Below, one piece after another: positions 51,697 through 62,661 of a DNA stretch of 64,000 bases. Source of the DNA: Escherichia phage EC.W2-6; sequence record PP445229.1; one strand, given 5' to 3'. Made by a program: the position numbers and the translations under genes. The notes beneath the pieces were generated by a model, which made no database searches, had not been told where the DNA came from, and saw only the letters and a list, made by a program, of their open reading frames with translations. Numbering within the stretch: the first letter of the stretch is position 1; every line of letters begins with the position of its first letter.

Positions 51697-51978
51697 ATAA
51701 AGGGCACATCATAAGACCTACCCGTAAAGGCCACCTCACATTAACACCCGTGAGAATACCTGTATTCATTTTCGTAGTCTTCTTCAGAGAAGCTACCGTA
51801 TTCATCTTCTGTCATACATCCCTCTGATAAAGTTAAGACATAAAGGGGACGTCATCTTTGATGACTACTTCACATTAAGGCACCCCCATAAAGGCCATGT
51901 CACGTTAAGGCCTATCCATCCATGTGCTGTGTTTAAGCTTACCACATTTACTACATCTCCAAGTGGACTTATAAAGGG
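51697..51978. repeat. three degenerate ~135-bp direct repeats (ATAAAGGG / CACATTAA units)
   Basis: ATAAAGGG at 51697, 51840, 51971, each followed by related CCCGTAA / CACATTAA segments. Confidence 0.5.
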
Positions 51979-52264
51979 TGTGAACTCTTTCATCCCCGTA
52001 AGCTTTGCGTATCCGATAGTACTCATGATCACATTTGAATTGCTTAATGATTAACTTAATTTTCCACATAAGTTCTCTTTCAACCTTATATATAAGAGTT
52101 TAAAATACAGATTTATAAAAAATAAAGATGTATATATCTGTTTAAAATTCTGATTTGACCGAGTGGGGCTAGCCGCTCGCCGCGCGTTTCCTAAAAGGGG
52201 GGAGTCCTCATTTAAAAAAGGGTTATTGGCAATGCCTTTACACCTCCTTCCACGTTCCAACCTT

Positions 52265-52327
52265 TCCCCGTGCCTACTCCCCGTTATTCTTTCCCCGTGT
52301 ATACCATCCTATTCATTAGCTACCCGT
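52265..52327. repeat. short direct repeats (T/C)CCCGT array
   Basis: TCCCCGT at 52265, 52278, 52292 and TACCCGT at 52321. Confidence 0.5.
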
Positions 52328-52636
52328 TTATTTAGTACCCCTTTAGAGAGTGAGAGAAAGGCTATACTCTGATAAGGCACAATCATAACAGGTCTAATAA
52401 TACCGTATTGTTACCGTTCAGCTCCCCATAGTTTGAATGTAAATAGTTTCAATAGTAATGATTATGAGTGCAATAATGATGTATGTATTAATTAAGTGGA
52501 TGATTGTAATTCTTTTAATAATTGCTTTTATTCTTTTCTTTTTCAGCGTGCCTTTGTGAGCGTAGCGAACGTCTTTGATGTTTGAGTTATACAATTATTT
52601 AAGTGGTATATTATTACCGCACTATCTTGCTATGTT

Positions 52637-52720
52637 TCCCCGTGGTCTACCCTGCGGTTGTATGCTCCCCGTGTCCTGGTCTGTTGGTCTGCTACCCGTA
52701 GCACCAGCGTAACACCCGTA
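52637..52720. repeat. short direct repeats CCCCGTG / ACCCGTA array
   Basis: TTCCCCGTG 52637, CTCCCCGTG 52665, TACCCGTA 52693, CACCCGTA 52713. Confidence 0.5.
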
Positions 52721-52836
52721 GGATTAGTGTTATAAAGTAACAATAGCTAGTAAGCTGATTCTCTGAGTATGGAAGGTTTAGTAAATTAAATTCCTTTAGT
52801 TTTCAGTGAGTTATAAGAAAGTTAGAAAATAAATGG

Positions 52837-52864
52837 TTGACAGGTTTTTCCTTTATTATATAGT
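52837..52864 (+). promoter_or_regulatory. sigma70-type early promoter
   Basis: TTGACA, 16-nt spacer, TATAGT; spacer TTTTCCTTTAT shared with promoter at 55090. Confidence 0.5.
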
Positions 52865-52908
52865 TGCGATTGTAATTTGTAGTTTTCATCAACCATAAGG
52901 AATATCAA

Positions 52909-53781
52909 ATGTCTAAAGTAGCAATTAACCACTTGAACAAAGCAAACGAAAGCCTTTCCTCTTTAGGCTTAACCGTTGGTAGTCCTGATGCGTGGATGGA
53001 AAACGAAAGCGCACGTAAAGGATTCAAAAACTCTGTAATGCTGGCTTGCTTGATCATTAATTCTACTGCGAACGCCTTACAGTGTGAAGATGAAAGCACG
53101 TTCAAAGAGAATGGCTTTACCGATATACAGGACGCTATCAACTGTTACATTCAGGCAAATTTGGATAGCTGGAATCAGAAAGATTGGCCTGAGTCATGCC
53201 GTGATGTGAAAGCTGAATTATCCCGCTTGTCTGTCATGGTTGAAGCATGGAACAAGAAAAACAAGAAACAACCAATCAAGCCTACTGTTGCAAGTAAGAT
53301 TATGAAGTCTGTTAATCTGGCAAGTTATGCACTGGTTGCAGCTATCGGTGTTAGTGCACTGGTCACGTCTCTTTCTGATAAGGCTATCGCTAGTCCTGCT
53401 CCTGCAACTGATGCGGCTAGTGTCTTCTCTAGTTCCATCAATAAGGGTTGGATGATTTGCAACGGTGCGGATAGTGACGGCAATAATATCGTGCTAAAGA
53501 TGAAATTTAGCAACGTAACAAATGATGGAGTTCTCTTTCAATCTAAAACGTTAGATAATCAGCCTAACAGTGATCTAGTTCTCAAGCGTACTGATAACGA
53601 TGCGGATATGGTGACATTTGGCACTGTACAACGTTATGAAGACGTTAAAGCTGTAACCAACCTAGTGAGCTATGGCCCGATCAATGAGTCGATGATCGCC
53701 ACCACGGTTTACAATAACGCTGATAATGCTGTTTATACTGTTCACGTTAATTTAGCCAACTGCATTAAGGCTAGTAAGTAA
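52909..53781 (+). CDS. early protein, unknown function
   Basis: First ORF downstream of a sigma70-like promoter; central hydrophobic helix. Confidence 0.5.
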   Translation: MSKVAINHLNKANESLSSLGLTVGSPDAWMENESARKGFKNSVMLACLIINSTANALQCEDESTFKENGFTDIQDAINCYIQANLDSWNQKDWPESCRDVKAELSRLSVMVEAWNKKNKKQPIKPTVASKIMKSVNLASYALVAAIGVSALVTSLSDKAIASPAPATDAASVFSSSINKGWMICNGADSDGNNIVLKMKFSNVTNDGVLFQSKTLDNQPNSDLVLKRTDNDADMVTFGTVQRYEDVKAVTNLVSYGPINESMIATTVYNNADNAVYTVHVNLANCIKASK

Positions 53782-53805
53782 ATAACCTATTTTGGGAGTG
53801 TAAAA

Positions 53806-54069
53806 ATGGCTATCAAAGAAATTAAGTTATCTAATGGCTTTTCTTGTTTTGTTGGTGGAAGCTCTATCCTGTTTAATACACTTGATGGTCAGATAACGTT
53901 ACCTGTTATCACTTTTTGCAGGATGGAATATCAGCCTCTTAAAGATTGGCTAGCCTTTGCTGATTTTGAAATTACCCGTGAAGACTTCAAATCAATCTAT
54001 ATTGACGGTGATTTATCACTGGCTAACCTGCTCAATCATGGACTAATTAAGGGTGATATTAATGGGTAA
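53806..54069 (+). CDS. early hypothetical protein
   Basis: ORF with GGGAG RBS. Confidence 0.45.
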   Translation: MAIKEIKLSNGFSCFVGGSSILFNTLDGQITLPVITFCRMEYQPLKDWLAFADFEITREDFKSIYIDGDLSLANLLNHGLIKGDING

Positions 54070-54316
54070 TGAAACAATCGCACTGATTGACACGCACAAT
54101 TACGGTGGCGTTACGCTCTCCTTTGATGAGTCAATCGACTACACTTATTTGTCCTTTCTAACTAAGGGTGAAATAAAAACTATTAGCTTTCCTGCGGTCT
54201 ATTTAGTACAGGATTATCTCACTATTGGGAAGTATTTAGCCCAACGCGGGATTCTTCTGTCGCTGGAAGAAGTGGAACAGGTTAGCGTAGCATTTTTTGG
54301 CGAGGATAGCAACTAG
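54062..54316 (+). CDS. early hypothetical protein
   Basis: ATG at 54062 preferred over GTG 54053. Confidence 0.4.
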   Translation: MGNETIALIDTHNYGGVTLSFDESIDYTYLSFLTKGEIKTISFPAVYLVQDYLTIGKYLAQRGILLSLEEVEQVSVAFFGEDSN

Positions 54317-54420
54317 TGATTCATGATTATTTTTGGCGTTGCTTGTTCGTTGTTACAGTGGCGTTATTCGTCGCTGATATGCTTTATTCTTATATTCTCT
54401 AACTATAGGTGATTATTATC

Positions 54421-54786
54421 ATGGGTATTATCAAATTTGTAGTAAAAGTATTCGTGGGCTTCTTCCTTGTCGTTCTCCTGCTGGGTGTGCTCCTATCGGC
54501 TATGGGTAGCGTTAAGGCTGCAACATTCTCCCCTGCTACGGTGGAAGGTTTACAGTGCACCTATTTGATAGAAAATTATGATACCGGTAAAAAGTCACCT
54601 AAAGTTATTATTTTGCATGTAAATGATTTCGATCATGTGCAATCAGATAGTAAAACTATTCTACTGGTAAATGAAACTACTGGTAAACAAATCACGGTCG
54701 ATCACTTGATGCGCTCATCGTTAACGCTCTTTGATGAGTCCATGAATGAAATGGCATCCGGTAATGGTCAATGTGTAAATCCATAG
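54421..54786 (+). CDS. early secreted/membrane protein
   Basis: N-terminal signal/TM (FVVKVFVGFFLVVLLLGVLLSA); followed by terminator. Confidence 0.45.
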   Translation: MGIIKFVVKVFVGFFLVVLLLGVLLSAMGSVKAATFSPATVEGLQCTYLIENYDTGKKSPKVIILHVNDFDHVQSDSKTILLVNETTGKQITVDHLMRSSLTLFDESMNEMASGNGQCVNP

Positions 54787-54863
54787 GCTTAATCTTTCTC
54801 CTGTATTGTGCCGTAGTCATGCCTATGGTCATAATTTATCTGATGCTTTAAATCCTTCCTGTA

Positions 54864-54890
54864 AGCCTCCTAGTGAGGCTTTTCTCTTTT
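54864..54890 (+). terminator. intrinsic terminator
   Basis: AAGCCTC-CTAGT-GAGGCTT then TTCTCTTTT. Confidence 0.6.
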
Positions 54891-55089
54891 ATGAGGTGAT
54901 TGTATGCCTTACTCCCTTTTAGCTCGTTGTGGTGCGTTACAGGCCGCTTATTATTGCTTTACAAGCCGTTTTCTATGATGTATCACGCGCCCCCGCTCTT
55001 TTACCTCCTGATTTCTTCCGGTGTCCTACCGACAATAAAATAAATTCCTTTATAAAACAGTGAGATGAAAAATAATTTGAAAAAAGGGT

Positions 55090-55117
55090 ATTGACATGAT
55101 TTTCCTTTATAGTAATA
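55090..55117 (+). promoter_or_regulatory. sigma70-type early promoter
   Basis: TTGACA, 16-nt spacer, TAATAT. Confidence 0.55.
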
Positions 55118-55296
55118 TGAATCCCGTAGTAAGCAGTAAGTAACAACAAGTAGTAAAAACTCCTCGATAGGTGATTAGCATCACGGTAAAAGGCTTCAAC
55201 GGGGAGCGGTAGGAATACCGACAGTAAGACGCACAATGAAGGTGCTACGCTCTTTAAAAATCAGGCTAGAAAGTGAAAATATTCTTAAAAAGAGTA

Positions 55297-55325
55297 TTGA
55301 CACCGAAAACAGCCTGATTCATAAT
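55297..55325 (+). promoter_or_regulatory. sigma70-type early promoter
   Basis: TTGACA, 17-nt spacer, CATAAT; near-duplicate of promoter at 55599. Confidence 0.55.
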
Positions 55326-55443
55326 AAGCACTCAGTCAGCGATGACTTAAAAAATCCCGCTCTTTAAAAACTTATCATCTTGCCTTTTCGCATAGATTCA
55401 CGCGAGATAAGGGAAAAGAATAAAAGAAGATGATAAAAAAGAG

Positions 55444-55472
55444 ATTGACAAGCTAACACGATGTGTTAAGCT
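55444..55472 (+). promoter_or_regulatory. possible sigma70-type promoter (weak -10)
   Basis: TTGACA with poor -10 (AAGCTG) at 17 nt. Confidence 0.25.
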
Positions 55473-55598
55473 GTAAATGCTACACCGCTCTTTAACAATA
55501 TGAATCATAAGTTAAGCATCACCGCTTAATCTTCAATCAAATAAAGCTGATTGATATATCCTCCCAATAGCGGGAACGACGAAAAAGATTAAAAAGTG

Positions 55599-55627
55599 GT
55601 TGACAGCGAAAACAACATGATTCATAA
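55599..55627 (+). promoter_or_regulatory. sigma70-type early promoter
   Basis: TTGACA, 17-nt spacer, CATAAT. Confidence 0.55.
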
Positions 55628-56549
55628 TGAGCACTCACTAAGCAAATCACCGCTTCAGTGAAAAGCGTAACAACGGCTAACAGTTGCATAGTGTGAGAAA
55701 GCACACTGATAGATTTACCGCTCTTTAATAATTTAAACATTCTCCTATATCGGTTGAATATGTTAGATGATAATAACCATCGGATAACATACCAGATAAA
55801 ACGGTGTAAGATTCTCTAAACTATCAGAGAAAACAATCTTATAATCCCTTGCTGGAAACGTCACCACTGATAAACGGATTCATTGAGTGTACGCAAAGAT
55901 TTAAGCTAATCGCCCACGGTTAAGGGTAGCGGCGGTCATCGCTAACAAGGCGCTACAGTGAAAGAAGTTAATCAGGGTAGGCAAGCCCGAAGAATTAACG
56001 CTCAATTGAGAGCGGCGGGGAGTGGTTAAAAAGTGGCAAATTGCTATTTAACAATAAGGTTTAGTGTGAACGTTTACGATGTGAATGATTTGAGGCCACT
56101 ATTGATGGCGTACATAGTCAGTTTATGTAGTAAACTTGCCGAAAGATATAAAACGTCAGAACATTAGACGGTCAATGACTCTTTCACAATAGCATCCCGT
56201 TGTGGGCGATGGCTAGTGATTGAGAGTTGATACAAAAGGATAGGCGAGAGCGAAAGCAAAGTAGACGATATTGCCGACGGTTACAATAAACGTAACTAAT
56301 TAGAGTCGGACGCACTGCCTTATTGTGATGATTGATCATCGCTATCAGGTCGGCTTCGTTTATAGCGACTAATTAAAGATACCAGATGAAACATCACGGA
56401 TAAGGGGGCGGCAAGGTTAACTCCTGATAAGACCGCCCCGCTTACCTATAACTACTTAACAACGAGTGGTTATAGTTAAGTTAATAGTGACTTAAACAAG
56501 CTCATAGAGAGCGGGGCAATAGCGCCCTTACAAGTGAAAGGTGAATATC

Positions 56550-57449
56550 ATGGCTAAAATCTTTACTCTGGTTAACGAATCCGGTTTTAATGCTCTGGCT
56601 AACAACATTCGCAGTAATAACGCGGCGATCAAACAAGATGTTTCTAACTTCCTGTTAGGGCACTTACAGCACTTCCGCAGTAATGGTAAGAAGCTGGACG
56701 TATTGCAGTCGGCGGTTGACTTTCTGTTAACTGAACGTTTCCGTGATATGGATGTTATTGCCACTGCAATTACTTTCTTAACTCCTATCAAGTTTAACAC
56801 CGATGCGGCAAATGGTCGTAAAAAGTGGATTAATCTGGAAGGTGAGGCGAAAGCTAAAGAAGACGCGAAAGAAGCGCAAATTAAAACCAAAATGGAACAA
56901 AACCGCGCTCGCTGGTCAAATGCTTTCGAGAATTTTGCTTTAGGCCGTGAAATTGAAGTTGATAATCCTAACTTTTACAAGGGTTGCAATGACAACGTGG
57001 CGGCACACCTGCAAATCCCGGCGAAAAACAAGGAAGATTTTAATCAGGATATTTACGCTTTAGTTGAACGCTTGAATGCAATCCGTATTGAAGCCAAATT
57101 ATTGGCTGATGAGCGCAATGGTGCTACCAGCGATAACACTATCGCCTTAAGTGAAGAAGTGGGCAAAGTTAAGAAGTCATTCGACTCGCTCATCAAGAAA
57201 GTCACGGCCTCAACGGTAGCGATCTCTGATAACTACCTGATGAACGCATCAAGCAAGGAATTAGAATCACTCGATTCATACGCTGATGAAATGGAAAAGA
57301 CTGTTGCAGCTATGCAGGAGAAGTTAGAAAGTCTGCGCGGTCGTATCTCTTCAACGGTTGCTACCCGTACCGAACAAGCTGCGAAAGCAGAAGAGGAAGA
57401 AGTATTGCGTAAAGCGGCTGAAATTATGGCGGCACGTCAAGCGGCATAA
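56550..57449 (+). CDS. early protein, unknown function (300 aa, helical)
   Basis: AAAGGTG RBS; first ORF after tandem promoter array and long leader; terminator follows. Confidence 0.55.
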   Translation: MAKIFTLVNESGFNALANNIRSNNAAIKQDVSNFLLGHLQHFRSNGKKLDVLQSAVDFLLTERFRDMDVIATAITFLTPIKFNTDAANGRKKWINLEGEAKAKEDAKEAQIKTKMEQNRARWSNAFENFALGREIEVDNPNFYKGCNDNVAAHLQIPAKNKEDFNQDIYALVERLNAIRIEAKLLADERNGATSDNTIALSEEVGKVKKSFDSLIKKVTASTVAISDNYLMNASSKELESLDSYADEMEKTVAAMQEKLESLRGRISSTVATRTEQAAKAEEEEVLRKAAEIMAARQAA

Positions 57450-57472
57450 GTAAGACAATTTAAATAAACATA

Positions 57473-57506
57473 AGGTGCTATCTTAACGGGTAGCGCCTTT
57501 TCTTTT
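57473..57506 (+). terminator. intrinsic terminator
   Basis: AGGTGCTA...TAGCGCCT stem then TTTCTTTTAT. Confidence 0.5.
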
Positions 57507-57560
57507 ATCAGTGCATTGATTCAGTGCATTAATCAAAGAATTTAATCAAAGGTGATGATC

Positions 57561-58945: not shown

Positions 58946-58968
58946 AGCCGCCTTTGAGCGGCTTTTTG
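58946..58968 (+). terminator. intrinsic terminator
   Basis: AGCCGC-CTTTGA-GCGGCT then TTTTTG. Confidence 0.55.
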
Positions 58969-59030: not shown

Positions 59031-59056
59031 GCCCCGGCTACGGCTGGGGCTTTTTT
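59031..59056 (+). terminator. intrinsic terminator
   Basis: GCCCCGGC-TACG-GCTGGGGC then TTTTTT. Confidence 0.7.
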
Positions 59057-59694: not shown

Positions 59695-59991
59695 ATGACT
59701 TTAGAAGTATATAAATTCCTTTTTGTAAGCTGTTTAACTATCAGCGTTCTAGGATTTATTGTTCTAAGAAACAAAGCAGCAAGCTGGGAAAGAATGTATA
59801 AATCCCTAGTCCGAGTGGATGAGATGTATAATGAGAAGGTTAAAGTAACACTCAACGATCTTATTATGCAAGTTGAGGACAGAAACAAGCGTCTTCAGAA
59901 CCTCAATCACGAAGTGTTACGCCTTGCTCGTGCTAATGAAGACTTGCGAATAGCTATTGCTAAGCAGCAGGAGATTAACAGTGATAATTGA
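59695..59991 (+). CDS. membrane-anchored coiled-coil protein
   Basis: N-terminal TM (FLFVSCLTISVLGFIVL) then heptad-rich region. Confidence 0.4.
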   Translation: MTLEVYKFLFVSCLTISVLGFIVLRNKAASWERMYKSLVRVDEMYNEKVKVTLNDLIMQVEDRNKRLQNLNHEVLRLARANEDLRIAIAKQQEINSDN

Positions 59992-62585: not shown

Positions 62586-62661
62586 GCGCTCTTAGCTCAA
62601 TGGATAGAGCAGTAGCCTTCTAAGCTATTGGTTACAGGTTCGAGTCCTGTAGGGCGCACCA
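62586..62661 (+). tRNA. tRNA-Arg (anticodon UCU), CCA encoded
   Basis: Cloverleaf by hand: 7-bp acceptor GCGCTCT/AGGGCGC, D-arm GCTC/GAGC, anticodon stem GTAGC/GCTAT with loop CTTCTAA, T-arm ACAGG-TTCGAGT-CCTGT, then ACCA. Confidence 0.85.

What the first reader, a model, noticed from the sequence alone, without database searches (positions are those of the whole stretch)
56550..57449. First early gene after the promoter array encodes a 300-aa helical protein of unknown function
This is the best-expressed-looking early gene (strong RBS, biased codons, own terminator) and the first product made after sigma70 promoter capture. That position is typically held by host-takeover or anti-restriction factors. 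No motif is recognisable.
Basis: inference. Interest (0 to 1): 0.4.

Follow-up and report, generated by a model that had tools for sequence, protein, structure and literature searches.

The report
Conserved orphan first early phage gene
The gene is real: it is the phiEco32 gp124 homologue of a Kuravirus coliphage, a strongly conserved 299-residue early protein with no known fold or function, and its expression is set up by ribosomal-RNA-style signals upstream.

Summary
The window is a Kuravirus (phiEco32-like) coliphage. ORF 56550-57449 (+) is the homologue of phiEco32 phi32_124 / PHROG 13018, annotated everywhere as hypothetical.

- The ORF is coding: dN/dS is 0.028 and substitutions fall 8/0/39 by codon position.
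- CAI ranks 8th of 98 genes and is the highest among the larger early genes.
- It follows four sigma70-type promoters and has its own intrinsic terminator, which is conserved in most relatives checked.
- The RBS is only average.
- In Kuravirus a gp128-125 operon lies upstream. In four diverged relatives the gene is the first early gene.

Each upstream promoter is followed by an rrn-type boxA. Then comes an 0.8-kb non-coding leader whose structure is supported by covariation.

Function is unresolved. My best guess is an abundant, non-enzymatic, oligomeric binder of a host factor (takeover or anti-defence). It does not resemble Ocr. Published, unexplained restriction resistance of this subfamily makes an anti-restriction role testable.

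The parts
55091..55118 (+). Early promoter P1 (TTGACA-16-TAATAT) with an A-rich upstream tract
55248..55260 (+). boxA copy 1, CGCTCTTTAAAAA
   Evidence: (family D2). The pattern GCTCTTTAA occurs 6 times in the window against 0.71 expected; 4 of the 6 are here, all on the + strand.
55297..55325 (+). Early promoter P2 (TTGACA-17-CATAAT, 11 of 12)
55358..55370 (+). boxA copy 2, CGCTCTTTAAAAA
55445..55472 (+). Early promoter P3 (TTGACA-16-TAAGCT preceded by TGt, extended -10 type)
   Evidence: Read from the sequence. TTGACA position. The SU10 paper predicts three sigma70 promoters in this spacer (PMC4281155).
55486..55498 (+). boxA copy 3, CGCTCTTTAACAA
   Evidence: The 20 nt at 55484-55503 are identical in the otherwise unalignable distant relatives L015 and L016.
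55600..55628 (+). Early promoter P4 (TTGACA-17-CATAAT, 11 of 12)
55719..55735 (+). boxA copy 4 plus spacer, CGCTCTTTAATAATTTA
   Evidence: Matches E. coli rrnG boxA-spacer UGCUCUUUAACAAUUUA at 15 of 17 positions (sequence from PMC2724277). Relative L008 matches 17 of 17.
55736..56537 (+). Untranslated, structured leader RNA of about 0.8 kb, including an internal boxA-like TGCTATTTAACAA at 56042-56054
   Evidence: No codon periodicity. Present full length in the same 97 phage records as the gene. RNAalifold structure on 8 sequences: 185 pairs, 89% of cells paired against about 40% in slid controls, and 96 pairs changed on both sides against 23-35. No Rfam family.
56538..56543 (+). Shine-Dalgarno AAGGTG, 6 nt before the ATG
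   Evidence: -8.5 kcal/mol, rank 31 of 98.
56550..57449 (+). CDS of the 299-aa gp124 homologue. Orphan alpha+beta N-domain (about residues 10-190) plus an acidic helical C-terminal third (198-298).
57472..57509 (+). Intrinsic terminator or attenuator (12-bp stem, 4-nt loop, T-run)
   Evidence: Conserved in position with a T-run in phiEco32, L005, L006, L008, L011 and L010, with different stem sequences. L014-L016 have a hairpin with a weak or absent T-run. Annotated as a terminator in phage SU7.

Best explanation
What is shown. This is the conserved protein-coding cargo of the main early transcription unit of SU10/phiEco32-type podophages. Host sigma70 RNA polymerase starts at four tandem strong promoters. 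Each transcript acquires an rrn-type boxA within about 7-130 nt. The unit ends at an intrinsic terminator right after the gene.

Inferred from established Nus-factor biology. The boxA elements recruit NusB/NusE and the other Nus factors. This makes the polymerase Rho-resistant, so it can cross an 0.8-kb untranslated structured leader and reach the gene. Most transcripts stop at the terminator, so this mRNA becomes the dominant early message. Modified polymerases read on into the remaining early genes.

Inferred about the protein. It is made in stoichiometric rather than catalytic amounts. It has an orphan-fold, near-neutral N-terminal domain and an acidic C-terminal region of long helices with heptad-like hydrophobic spacing, which suggests an oligomer. 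The few invariant residues look structural: a helix N-cap Asp, a turn Gly, an Asn-Pro turn and core Phe residues.

My committed reading is that it is a non-enzymatic binder that sequesters or remodels a host macromolecule in the first minutes of infection. That means host takeover or neutralisation of a host defence. The target is unknown.
For: Real and constrained:
- dN/dS is 0.028, among the lowest of the nine early genes compared.
- The gene is in the published core proteome of Kuravirus-like phages.

Expression signals:
- Four promoters and a conserved terminator.
- CAI is the highest among the larger early genes.
- boxA is enriched 6 against 0.71 expected, always on the + strand downstream of a promoter.
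- boxA is conserved in L005, L006, L008, L011, L015, L016, SU7 and E20-1.
- One copy is near-identical to rrnG boxA-spacer.
- Further terminator-like sites lie downstream at 58946 and 59031.

Conserved position: head of the early cluster in seven diverged lineages.

Protein features:
- N-domain model has pLDDT 86.9 and pTM 0.82, with no PDB or viral fold match beyond its own family.
- Long C-terminal helices.
- The N-domain is conserved while the C-terminus is variable but always helical and acidic.
- Only five columns are invariant across the family: H41, D66, G98, F126, F129.
Against: - No direct evidence exists for any partner or phenotype.
- The protein was not among the early proteins detected by mass spectrometry of a PEG-precipitated SU10 lysate (PMC4281155). 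Abundance at the protein level is therefore unproven.
- The RBS is only average.
- H41 and R65-D66 are conserved and could be catalytic. I could not map them on coordinates.
- Strict conservation and core status are more typical of an essential regulator or replication factor than of an arms-race anti-defence gene.
- Nus-dependent antitermination at these boxA elements is inferred from sequence only.
- I could not read the two primary phiEco32 papers. Published data on this gene or on boxA may exist there.
Confidence: 0.4

Rival explanations
1. Anti-restriction or anti-defence factor. The protein is made before most of the genome is exposed and blocks restriction-modification systems, or another defence, by binding the enzymes or shielding phage DNA. 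This would explain the subfamily's broad restriction resistance.
For: - PMC11990801 reports pronounced RM resistance of all tested Gordonclarkvirinae with no known modification pathway or inhibitor.
- The genome retains 9 EcoRI, 34 EcoRV, 8 EcoKI and 110 EcoP1I sites, so site avoidance does not explain resistance to those enzymes.
- The gene is conserved across the whole subfamily, as the trait is.
- The architecture resembles T7 A1-A2-A3 followed by gene 0.3 (established knowledge).
- The 5.7 kb from the genome end through this gene contain no EcoRI, EcoRV, EcoKI, EcoBI or EcoAI site, against 5.9 expected.
Against: - It is not a DNA mimic: net charge -3, pI 5.85.
- No structural similarity to Ocr, ArdA, Gam or any solved protein.
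- Resistance to type II enzymes is usually due to DNA modification. The BASEL authors favour a dCTP-deaminase/nucleotidyltransferase pathway.
- General 6-bp palindrome avoidance in the leading region is not significant, rank 8 of 59 windows.
- The enzyme set was chosen by me.
- Very low dN/dS is atypical for arms-race genes.
Confidence: 0.2
2. RNA-linked function. The protein works with the RNA it is co-transcribed with. It could be a partner of the 0.8-kb structured leader (a ribonucleoprotein). Or it could be an N-like processivity or antitermination factor acting at the boxA-modified polymerase to read through its own terminator and those downstream.
For: - The layout promoter, boxA, gene, terminator parallels lambda pL-nutL-N-tL1 (established knowledge).
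- Leader and gene co-occur in all 97 phage records and in the diverged relatives.
- The leader structure has strong covariation support.
- rrn-type boxA alone is known to suppress mainly Rho-dependent termination (PMC2724277), yet intrinsic terminators follow.
- Salmonella phage 7-11 lacks both the boxA array and this gene.
Against: - Mass spectrometry of RNA polymerase from phiEco32-infected cells found only gp36 and gp79 (as summarised in PMC12276001).
- The N-domain is near neutral and lacks an arginine-rich motif.
- No fold similarity to N, Q, Nus factors or RNA-binding domains.
- The co-occurrence may simply reflect shared ancestry.
- High codon adaptation is not expected for a regulatory factor.
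Confidence: 0.15
3. Essential DNA-transaction or structural role inside the cell. Examples are genome-end protection, nucleoid remodelling or organising replication. It would be carried out by an abundant coiled-coil oligomer.
For: Core gene under strong purifying selection. High codon adaptation. A globular head plus long helices is common in scaffolding or DNA-organising proteins. Weak compositional hits to SMC/JetC coiled coils.
Against: No basic surface is evident from sequence. No OB, HTH or other DNA-binding fold was detected. The JetC and Pfam hits are far below threshold and lie in the coiled-coil part only.
Confidence: 0.15

Closest known systems
phiEco32 phi32_124 / SU10 CDS120 / YF01 gp117 (PHROG 13018)
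   Same: Same gene: 98% protein identity to phiEco32, same length, same position after the spacer that holds the predicted sigma70 promoters.
   Different: Nothing substantive. None of these has an assigned function in the records or papers I could read.
T7 gene 0.3 (Ocr)
   Same: First gene behind a tandem array of strong host-polymerase promoters at the leading end of a lytic podophage genome. It is made abundantly and early (established knowledge). The phage group is restriction-resistant.
   Different: Ocr is a small, extremely acidic DNA mimic. This protein is 33 kDa, nearly neutral, has an orphan fold, is separated from its promoters by an 0.8-kb leader and is followed by its own terminator.
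Lambda N with pL-nutL-N-tL1
   Same: The order promoter, boxA-containing RNA signal, first gene, terminator, with downstream early genes that need read-through.
   Different: N is a small, basic, disordered boxB-binding peptide. Here the boxA is of the rrn consensus type, which can work with host factors alone. There is no arginine-rich motif, and the protein was not reported with RNA polymerase.
E. coli rrn operon leader (tandem promoters, boxB-boxA-boxC antiterminator)
   Same: Tandem strong promoters with A-rich upstream tracts. boxA plus spacer match at 15-17 of 17 positions. A long untranslated structured RNA lies downstream.
   Different: The downstream RNA is not rRNA, has no Rfam family, and is followed by a protein gene. 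There are four boxA copies, one per promoter.

Membership tests
PHROG 13018 / phi32_124 family | Full-length sequence similarity to the family profile | tested here: met
   E 1.5e-202 over residues 1-299 of a 299-position profile. 98% identity to phi32_124.
PHROG 13018 / phi32_124 family | Syntenic position at the head of the early cluster, divergent from the terminase/late cluster | tested here: met
Ocr/ArdA-type DNA-mimic anti-restriction proteins | Very acidic protein whose surface charge mimics B-DNA | tested here: not met
   45 acidic against 42 basic residues, pI 5.85. N-domain charge is -2 to +2 across the family.
Ocr/ArdA-type DNA-mimic anti-restriction proteins | Fold similarity to a solved member | tested here: not met
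Ocr/ArdA-type DNA-mimic anti-restriction proteins | Inhibition of type I restriction-modification enzymes | not testable with these tools
   Needs plating assays with a knockout or with ectopic expression.
Lambda N / Q-type phage antiterminators | Arginine-rich boxB-binding motif (N), or a Q fold with DNA and polymerase binding | tested here: not met
   No arginine-rich N-terminus. No fold match. No Pfam match.
Lambda N / Q-type phage antiterminators | Association with the transcribing RNA polymerase | not testable with these tools
   Only indirect evidence: the literature summary lists gp36 and gp79 as the phage proteins found with RNA polymerase.
rrn-type boxA (Nus-factor) antitermination signal, applied to the upstream context and not to the protein | RNA sequence (U/C)GCUCUUUA followed by an A-rich spacer, on the transcribed strand downstream of a promoter | tested here: met
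   Four copies at 55248, 55358, 55486 and 55719, each downstream of a promoter. Comparison with the rrnG sequence in PMC2724277.
rrn-type boxA (Nus-factor) antitermination signal, applied to the upstream context and not to the protein | NusB/NusE binding and Rho-resistant elongation | not testable with these tools
   Requires in vitro binding, or transcription in nusB/nusE mutant hosts.

The most novel reading that the evidence does not exclude
The unit is a phage mimic of a ribosomal RNA operon. Tandem promoters and rrn-type boxA elements drive high-level, Rho-proof synthesis of a previously undescribed 0.8-kb structured RNA. The orphan-fold protein encoded directly behind it is that RNA's partner. 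The resulting ribonucleoprotein would be the early takeover or anti-defence device that underlies the unexplained broad restriction resistance of Gordonclarkvirinae.
Probability: 0.1. Interest if true: 0.8.

Novelty: new variant of a known kind. Interest (0 to 1): 0.45.

Why it matters
Gordonclarkvirinae are common, therapeutically used coliphages whose early biology is almost unknown. This gene is the most conserved and best-positioned early gene of the lineage, and its fold matches no solved structure or other viral model searched.

It is an obvious first target for explaining two published open points. One is the broad restriction resistance of the subfamily without a known mechanism (PMC11990801). 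The other is how early transcription reaches genes behind multiple terminators. For the related phage 7-11, PMC8948821 says an antitermination strategy remains to be defined.

The boxA array and structured leader suggest that a virulent phage takes over the host's rRNA antitermination system. I found no report of this in the searchable literature for this group.

Tried and rejected
Searches that found nothing:
- Pfam, NCBIfam and PADLOC gave only sub-threshold coiled-coil noise such as DUF3450, CorA and JetC.
- PDB sequence and profile searches were empty.
- The BFVD search found only the family itself.
- AFDB Foldseek was unavailable.
- The exhaustive HMM search found only 12 clusters.
- IMG/VR scans with distant members found nothing.
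- tblastn of distant members hit only kuraviruses.
- PHROG scans of ten neighbouring genes gave no credible function: eight are 'unknown function', and the two named matches repeat the implausible 'polymerase' and 'terminase' labels on 87-aa and 121-aa ORFs.

Ideas rejected:
- The protein as an Ocr-like mimic, on charge and fold.
- The leader as a decayed or unannotated ORF. It has no codon periodicity, and the roughly 100-aa ORF of distant relatives has no trace here.
- The leader as a known RNA family. Rfam gave nothing below E about 1.
- General palindrome avoidance in the leading 5.7 kb, which is not significant.

Literature limits:
- The svsR paper and the gp79 paper contain nothing on this gene.
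- The two primary phiEco32 papers are not held.

Full report
IDENTITY OF THE WINDOW AND THE GENE

A 2-kb query around the finding is 100% identical to Escherichia phages EC.W14-3 and EC.W8-1. It is about 96% identical to phiEco32, in the genus Kuravirus, subfamily Gordonclarkvirinae. The ORF at 56550-57449 (+) corresponds to phiEco32 phi32_124, a 'hypothetical protein' in every annotated record. It matches PHROG 13018, function unknown, over its whole length.

In phage YF01 it is gp117. It is entry 63 of the 63-protein core proteome of Kuravirus-like phages (PMC9965538 Table S4).

CHECK OF THE OBSERVATION

The ORF starts with ATG, 6 nt after AAGGTG, and encodes 299 aa of 33.3 kDa with pI 5.85.

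It is clearly coding:
- Against phiEco32, dN is 0.007 and dS 0.256, giving omega 0.028.
- The 47 substitutions fall 8/0/39 by codon position.
- Omega is among the lowest of the nine early genes compared.

The mean over 98 annotated genes is 0.288 with sd 0.082. That ranks 8th overall. It ranks behind only the capsid, portal and scaffold genes and one middle gene among proteins of at least 100 aa. It is the highest of the larger early-region genes.

The RBS is adequate but not exceptional: -8.5 kcal/mol, rank 31 of 98.

A 12-bp hairpin plus T-run lies 22 nt after the stop. Equivalent hairpins with different stem sequences and a T-run follow the stop in phiEco32, in L005, L006, L008 and L011, and in the locus of a 22%-identical relative, L010. 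In the distant L014-L016 a hairpin is present but the T-run is weak or absent. SU7's authors annotated the hairpin as a terminator.

Upstream, four TTGACA promoters with A-rich upstream tracts lie at 55091, 55297, 55445 and 55600. The SU10 paper describes one promoter before the gp128-type operon, a terminator after it, and three sigma70 promoters in the spacer before this gene, 'like phiEco32' (PMC4281155).

The array lies 0.9-1.5 kb upstream of the ATG. In Kuravirus a four-gene operon (52909-54786) lies nearer the genome end.

CONSERVED POSITION

In four diverged metagenomic lineages the protein is 47-70% identical. There the gene is the first called gene after a 3.0-3.4-kb gene-free gap that follows the divergent terminase/late cluster. 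The gp128-125 operon is absent.

In three lineages the protein is only about 20% identical. Their contigs carry an SU10-type portal. The gene is the second gene of the early cluster, after a conserved ORF of about 100 aa.

An exhaustive profile search of 1.84 billion representative proteins found only 12 clusters. Among cultured phages only 97 Escherichia/Shigella records carry the gene. Salmonella phage 7-11, a more distant relative, lacks it.

THE PROTEIN

No family library or PDB sequence search gives a credible hit.

Across the whole family only H41, D66, G98, F126 and F129 are invariant. S32, L36, Q53, R65, V69, G132, N139 and P140 are nearly so. From their positions in the secondary structure these look mainly structural. 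D66 sits at the start of helix 4, G98 and N139-P140 at turns, and the Phe residues in the long helix. H41 and D66 should lie at opposite ends of the bundle. This is inference, because I had no coordinates.

The N-domain is near neutral in all members. The C-terminal third is acidic and evolves about twice as fast, yet it stays helical. Residues 238-270 show 3-4 spacing of hydrophobic residues, read directly from the sequence. That suggests oligomerisation.

UPSTREAM CONTEXT

Each promoter is followed, 7-130 nt after the predicted start, by CGCTCTTTAA(A/C/T)AA. The core pattern occurs 6 times in the window against 0.71 expected. Four of the six are here, all on the + strand.

The fourth copy, CGCUCUUUAAUAAUUUA, matches the E. 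coli rrnG boxA-spacer UGCUCUUUAACAAUUUA at 15 of 17 positions. Relative L008 matches at 17 of 17.

The elements are conserved behind promoters in all relatives examined. This includes the 20%-identity lineages, where a 20-nt exact match around boxA is the only DNA similarity left. Phage 7-11 has none at its early end.

By established Nus-factor biology, such elements make RNA polymerase resistant to Rho on untranslated RNA. That is what is needed here, because 0.8 kb of non-coding RNA separates the last boxA from the ATG.

That leader shows no codon periodicity. It is present full length in the same 97 phage records as the gene. It has no Rfam match.

An RNAalifold structure on eight sequences has 185 pairs:
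- 89% of cells are paired, against about 40% when partners are slid.
- 96 pairs change on both sides, against 23-35 in the slid controls.
- No shuffle out of 500 reaches the observed values.

The caveat is that the structure was derived from the same alignment, and four of the eight sequences are close relatives.

I found no paper that mentions boxA together with phiEco32. I could not read the two primary phiEco32 papers.

MECHANISM

Shown: the signals, their conservation, and the orphan nature and constraint of the protein.

Inferred for expression: host polymerase starts at the array. boxA-Nus modification carries it through the leader. The gene is translated efficiently. The terminator stops most transcripts, so this message dominates. 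Modified complexes read on through this and the later terminator-like sites at 58946 and 59031.

Inferred for function: I commit to a stoichiometric, non-enzymatic, oligomeric binder of a host macromolecule (takeover or anti-defence), with confidence 0.4.

Rivals:
- A specific anti-restriction role, confidence 0.2.
  - For: the published, unexplained RM resistance of the subfamily; many retained restriction sites; a leading 5.7 kb free of five tested site types.
  - Against: the lack of any DNA-mimic character; the authors' own DNA-modification hypothesis; a non-significant general palindrome test.
- An RNA-linked role, either as a partner of the leader or as an N-like factor, confidence 0.15.
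  - For: the lambda-like layout and the strict co-occurrence of leader and gene.
  - Against: the absence of the protein from RNA polymerase preparations as summarised in PMC12276001; a near-neutral N-domain.
- An essential DNA-transaction or scaffolding role, confidence 0.15.

COMPARISON AND NOVELTY

The gene is a known, unstudied hypothetical protein (phi32_124).

In layout it resembles T7 gene 0.3 behind A1-A3, and lambda N between nutL and tL1. It fails the defining sequence, charge and fold features of both families.

The regulatory context resembles an rrn operon leader. I rate the finding a new variant of a known kind: an early first-gene module, here with an orphan protein, rrn-type boxA elements and a large structured leader.

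Interest is moderate (0.45). The protein alone is an ordinary 'conserved hypothetical'. Its conservation, its position, the open restriction-resistance question and the unusual upstream RNA signals make it a well-defined experimental target.

Noticed in passing
window 55248-55260, 55358-55370, 55486-55498, 55719-55735 (+): Four rrn-type boxA elements, one behind each early sigma70 promoter. The last matches E. coli rrnG boxA-spacer at 15 of 17 positions, and relative L008 at 17 of 17. They are conserved in all Gordonclarkvirinae-like relatives examined and absent from the early end of Salmonella phage 7-11. No paper pairing boxA with phiEco32 was found in the searchable library.
   Followed up: partly
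window 55736-56537 (+): A non-coding leader of about 0.8 kb between the last boxA and the gene. It is present full length in the same 97 phage records as the gene. Substitutions show no codon periodicity and there is no Rfam match. A consensus structure of 185 pairs has strong covariation relative to slid and shuffled controls. A possible closing helix pairs boxA 4 with 56503-56511, but that helix has little covariation.
   Followed up: partly
window 52837-54881 (+): The gp128-125-type operon has its own promoter (52837) and terminator (54863-54881). It is absent from four diverged relatives and is not in the published core proteome. It looks like an accessory insertion between the genome end and the conserved early unit.
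   Followed up: partly
whole window: Strong avoidance of some sites: CCWGG 3 observed against about 72 expected, PstI 0 against 10, BamHI 1 against 10.5, GATC 121 against 235. EcoRV, HindIII and CAGCAG are over-represented. Expectations come from mononucleotide shuffles only.
   Followed up: no
window 51806-57500: No EcoRI, EcoRV, EcoKI, EcoBI or EcoAI site in the 5.7 kb from the presumed genome end through the gene, against 5.9 expected in total. The non-coding spacer 54790-56549 has few G/C-containing 6-bp palindromes (4 against a mean of 13.2). The whole 5.7-kb region is not significantly depleted of palindromes.
   Followed up: partly
window 53806-54069, 54421-54786, 59695-59991: Small ORFs of 87, 121 and 98 aa carry implausible names in public records ('polymerase' or 'DNA polymerase B region', 'terminase', 'DNA helicase'). 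PHROGs repeats two of these names. They look like propagated mis-annotations.
   Followed up: no
L014 9732-10088; L015 10098-10430 and 11088-11348; L016 5221-5553 and 6267-6527: Early clusters of the distant SU10-type relatives encode a ProQ-domain protein. Two of them (L015, L016) also encode a DksA/TraR-type zinc-finger protein. Both lie a few genes downstream of the gp124-like gene.
   Followed up: no
window 58946-58963 and 59031-59050 (+): Two further terminator-like hairpins with T-runs lie inside the early cluster, with no strong promoter predicted after them. This fits a need for read-through.
   Followed up: no
window 62586-62661 (+): A tRNA-Arg (anticodon TCT) lies within the early region.
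   Followed up: no
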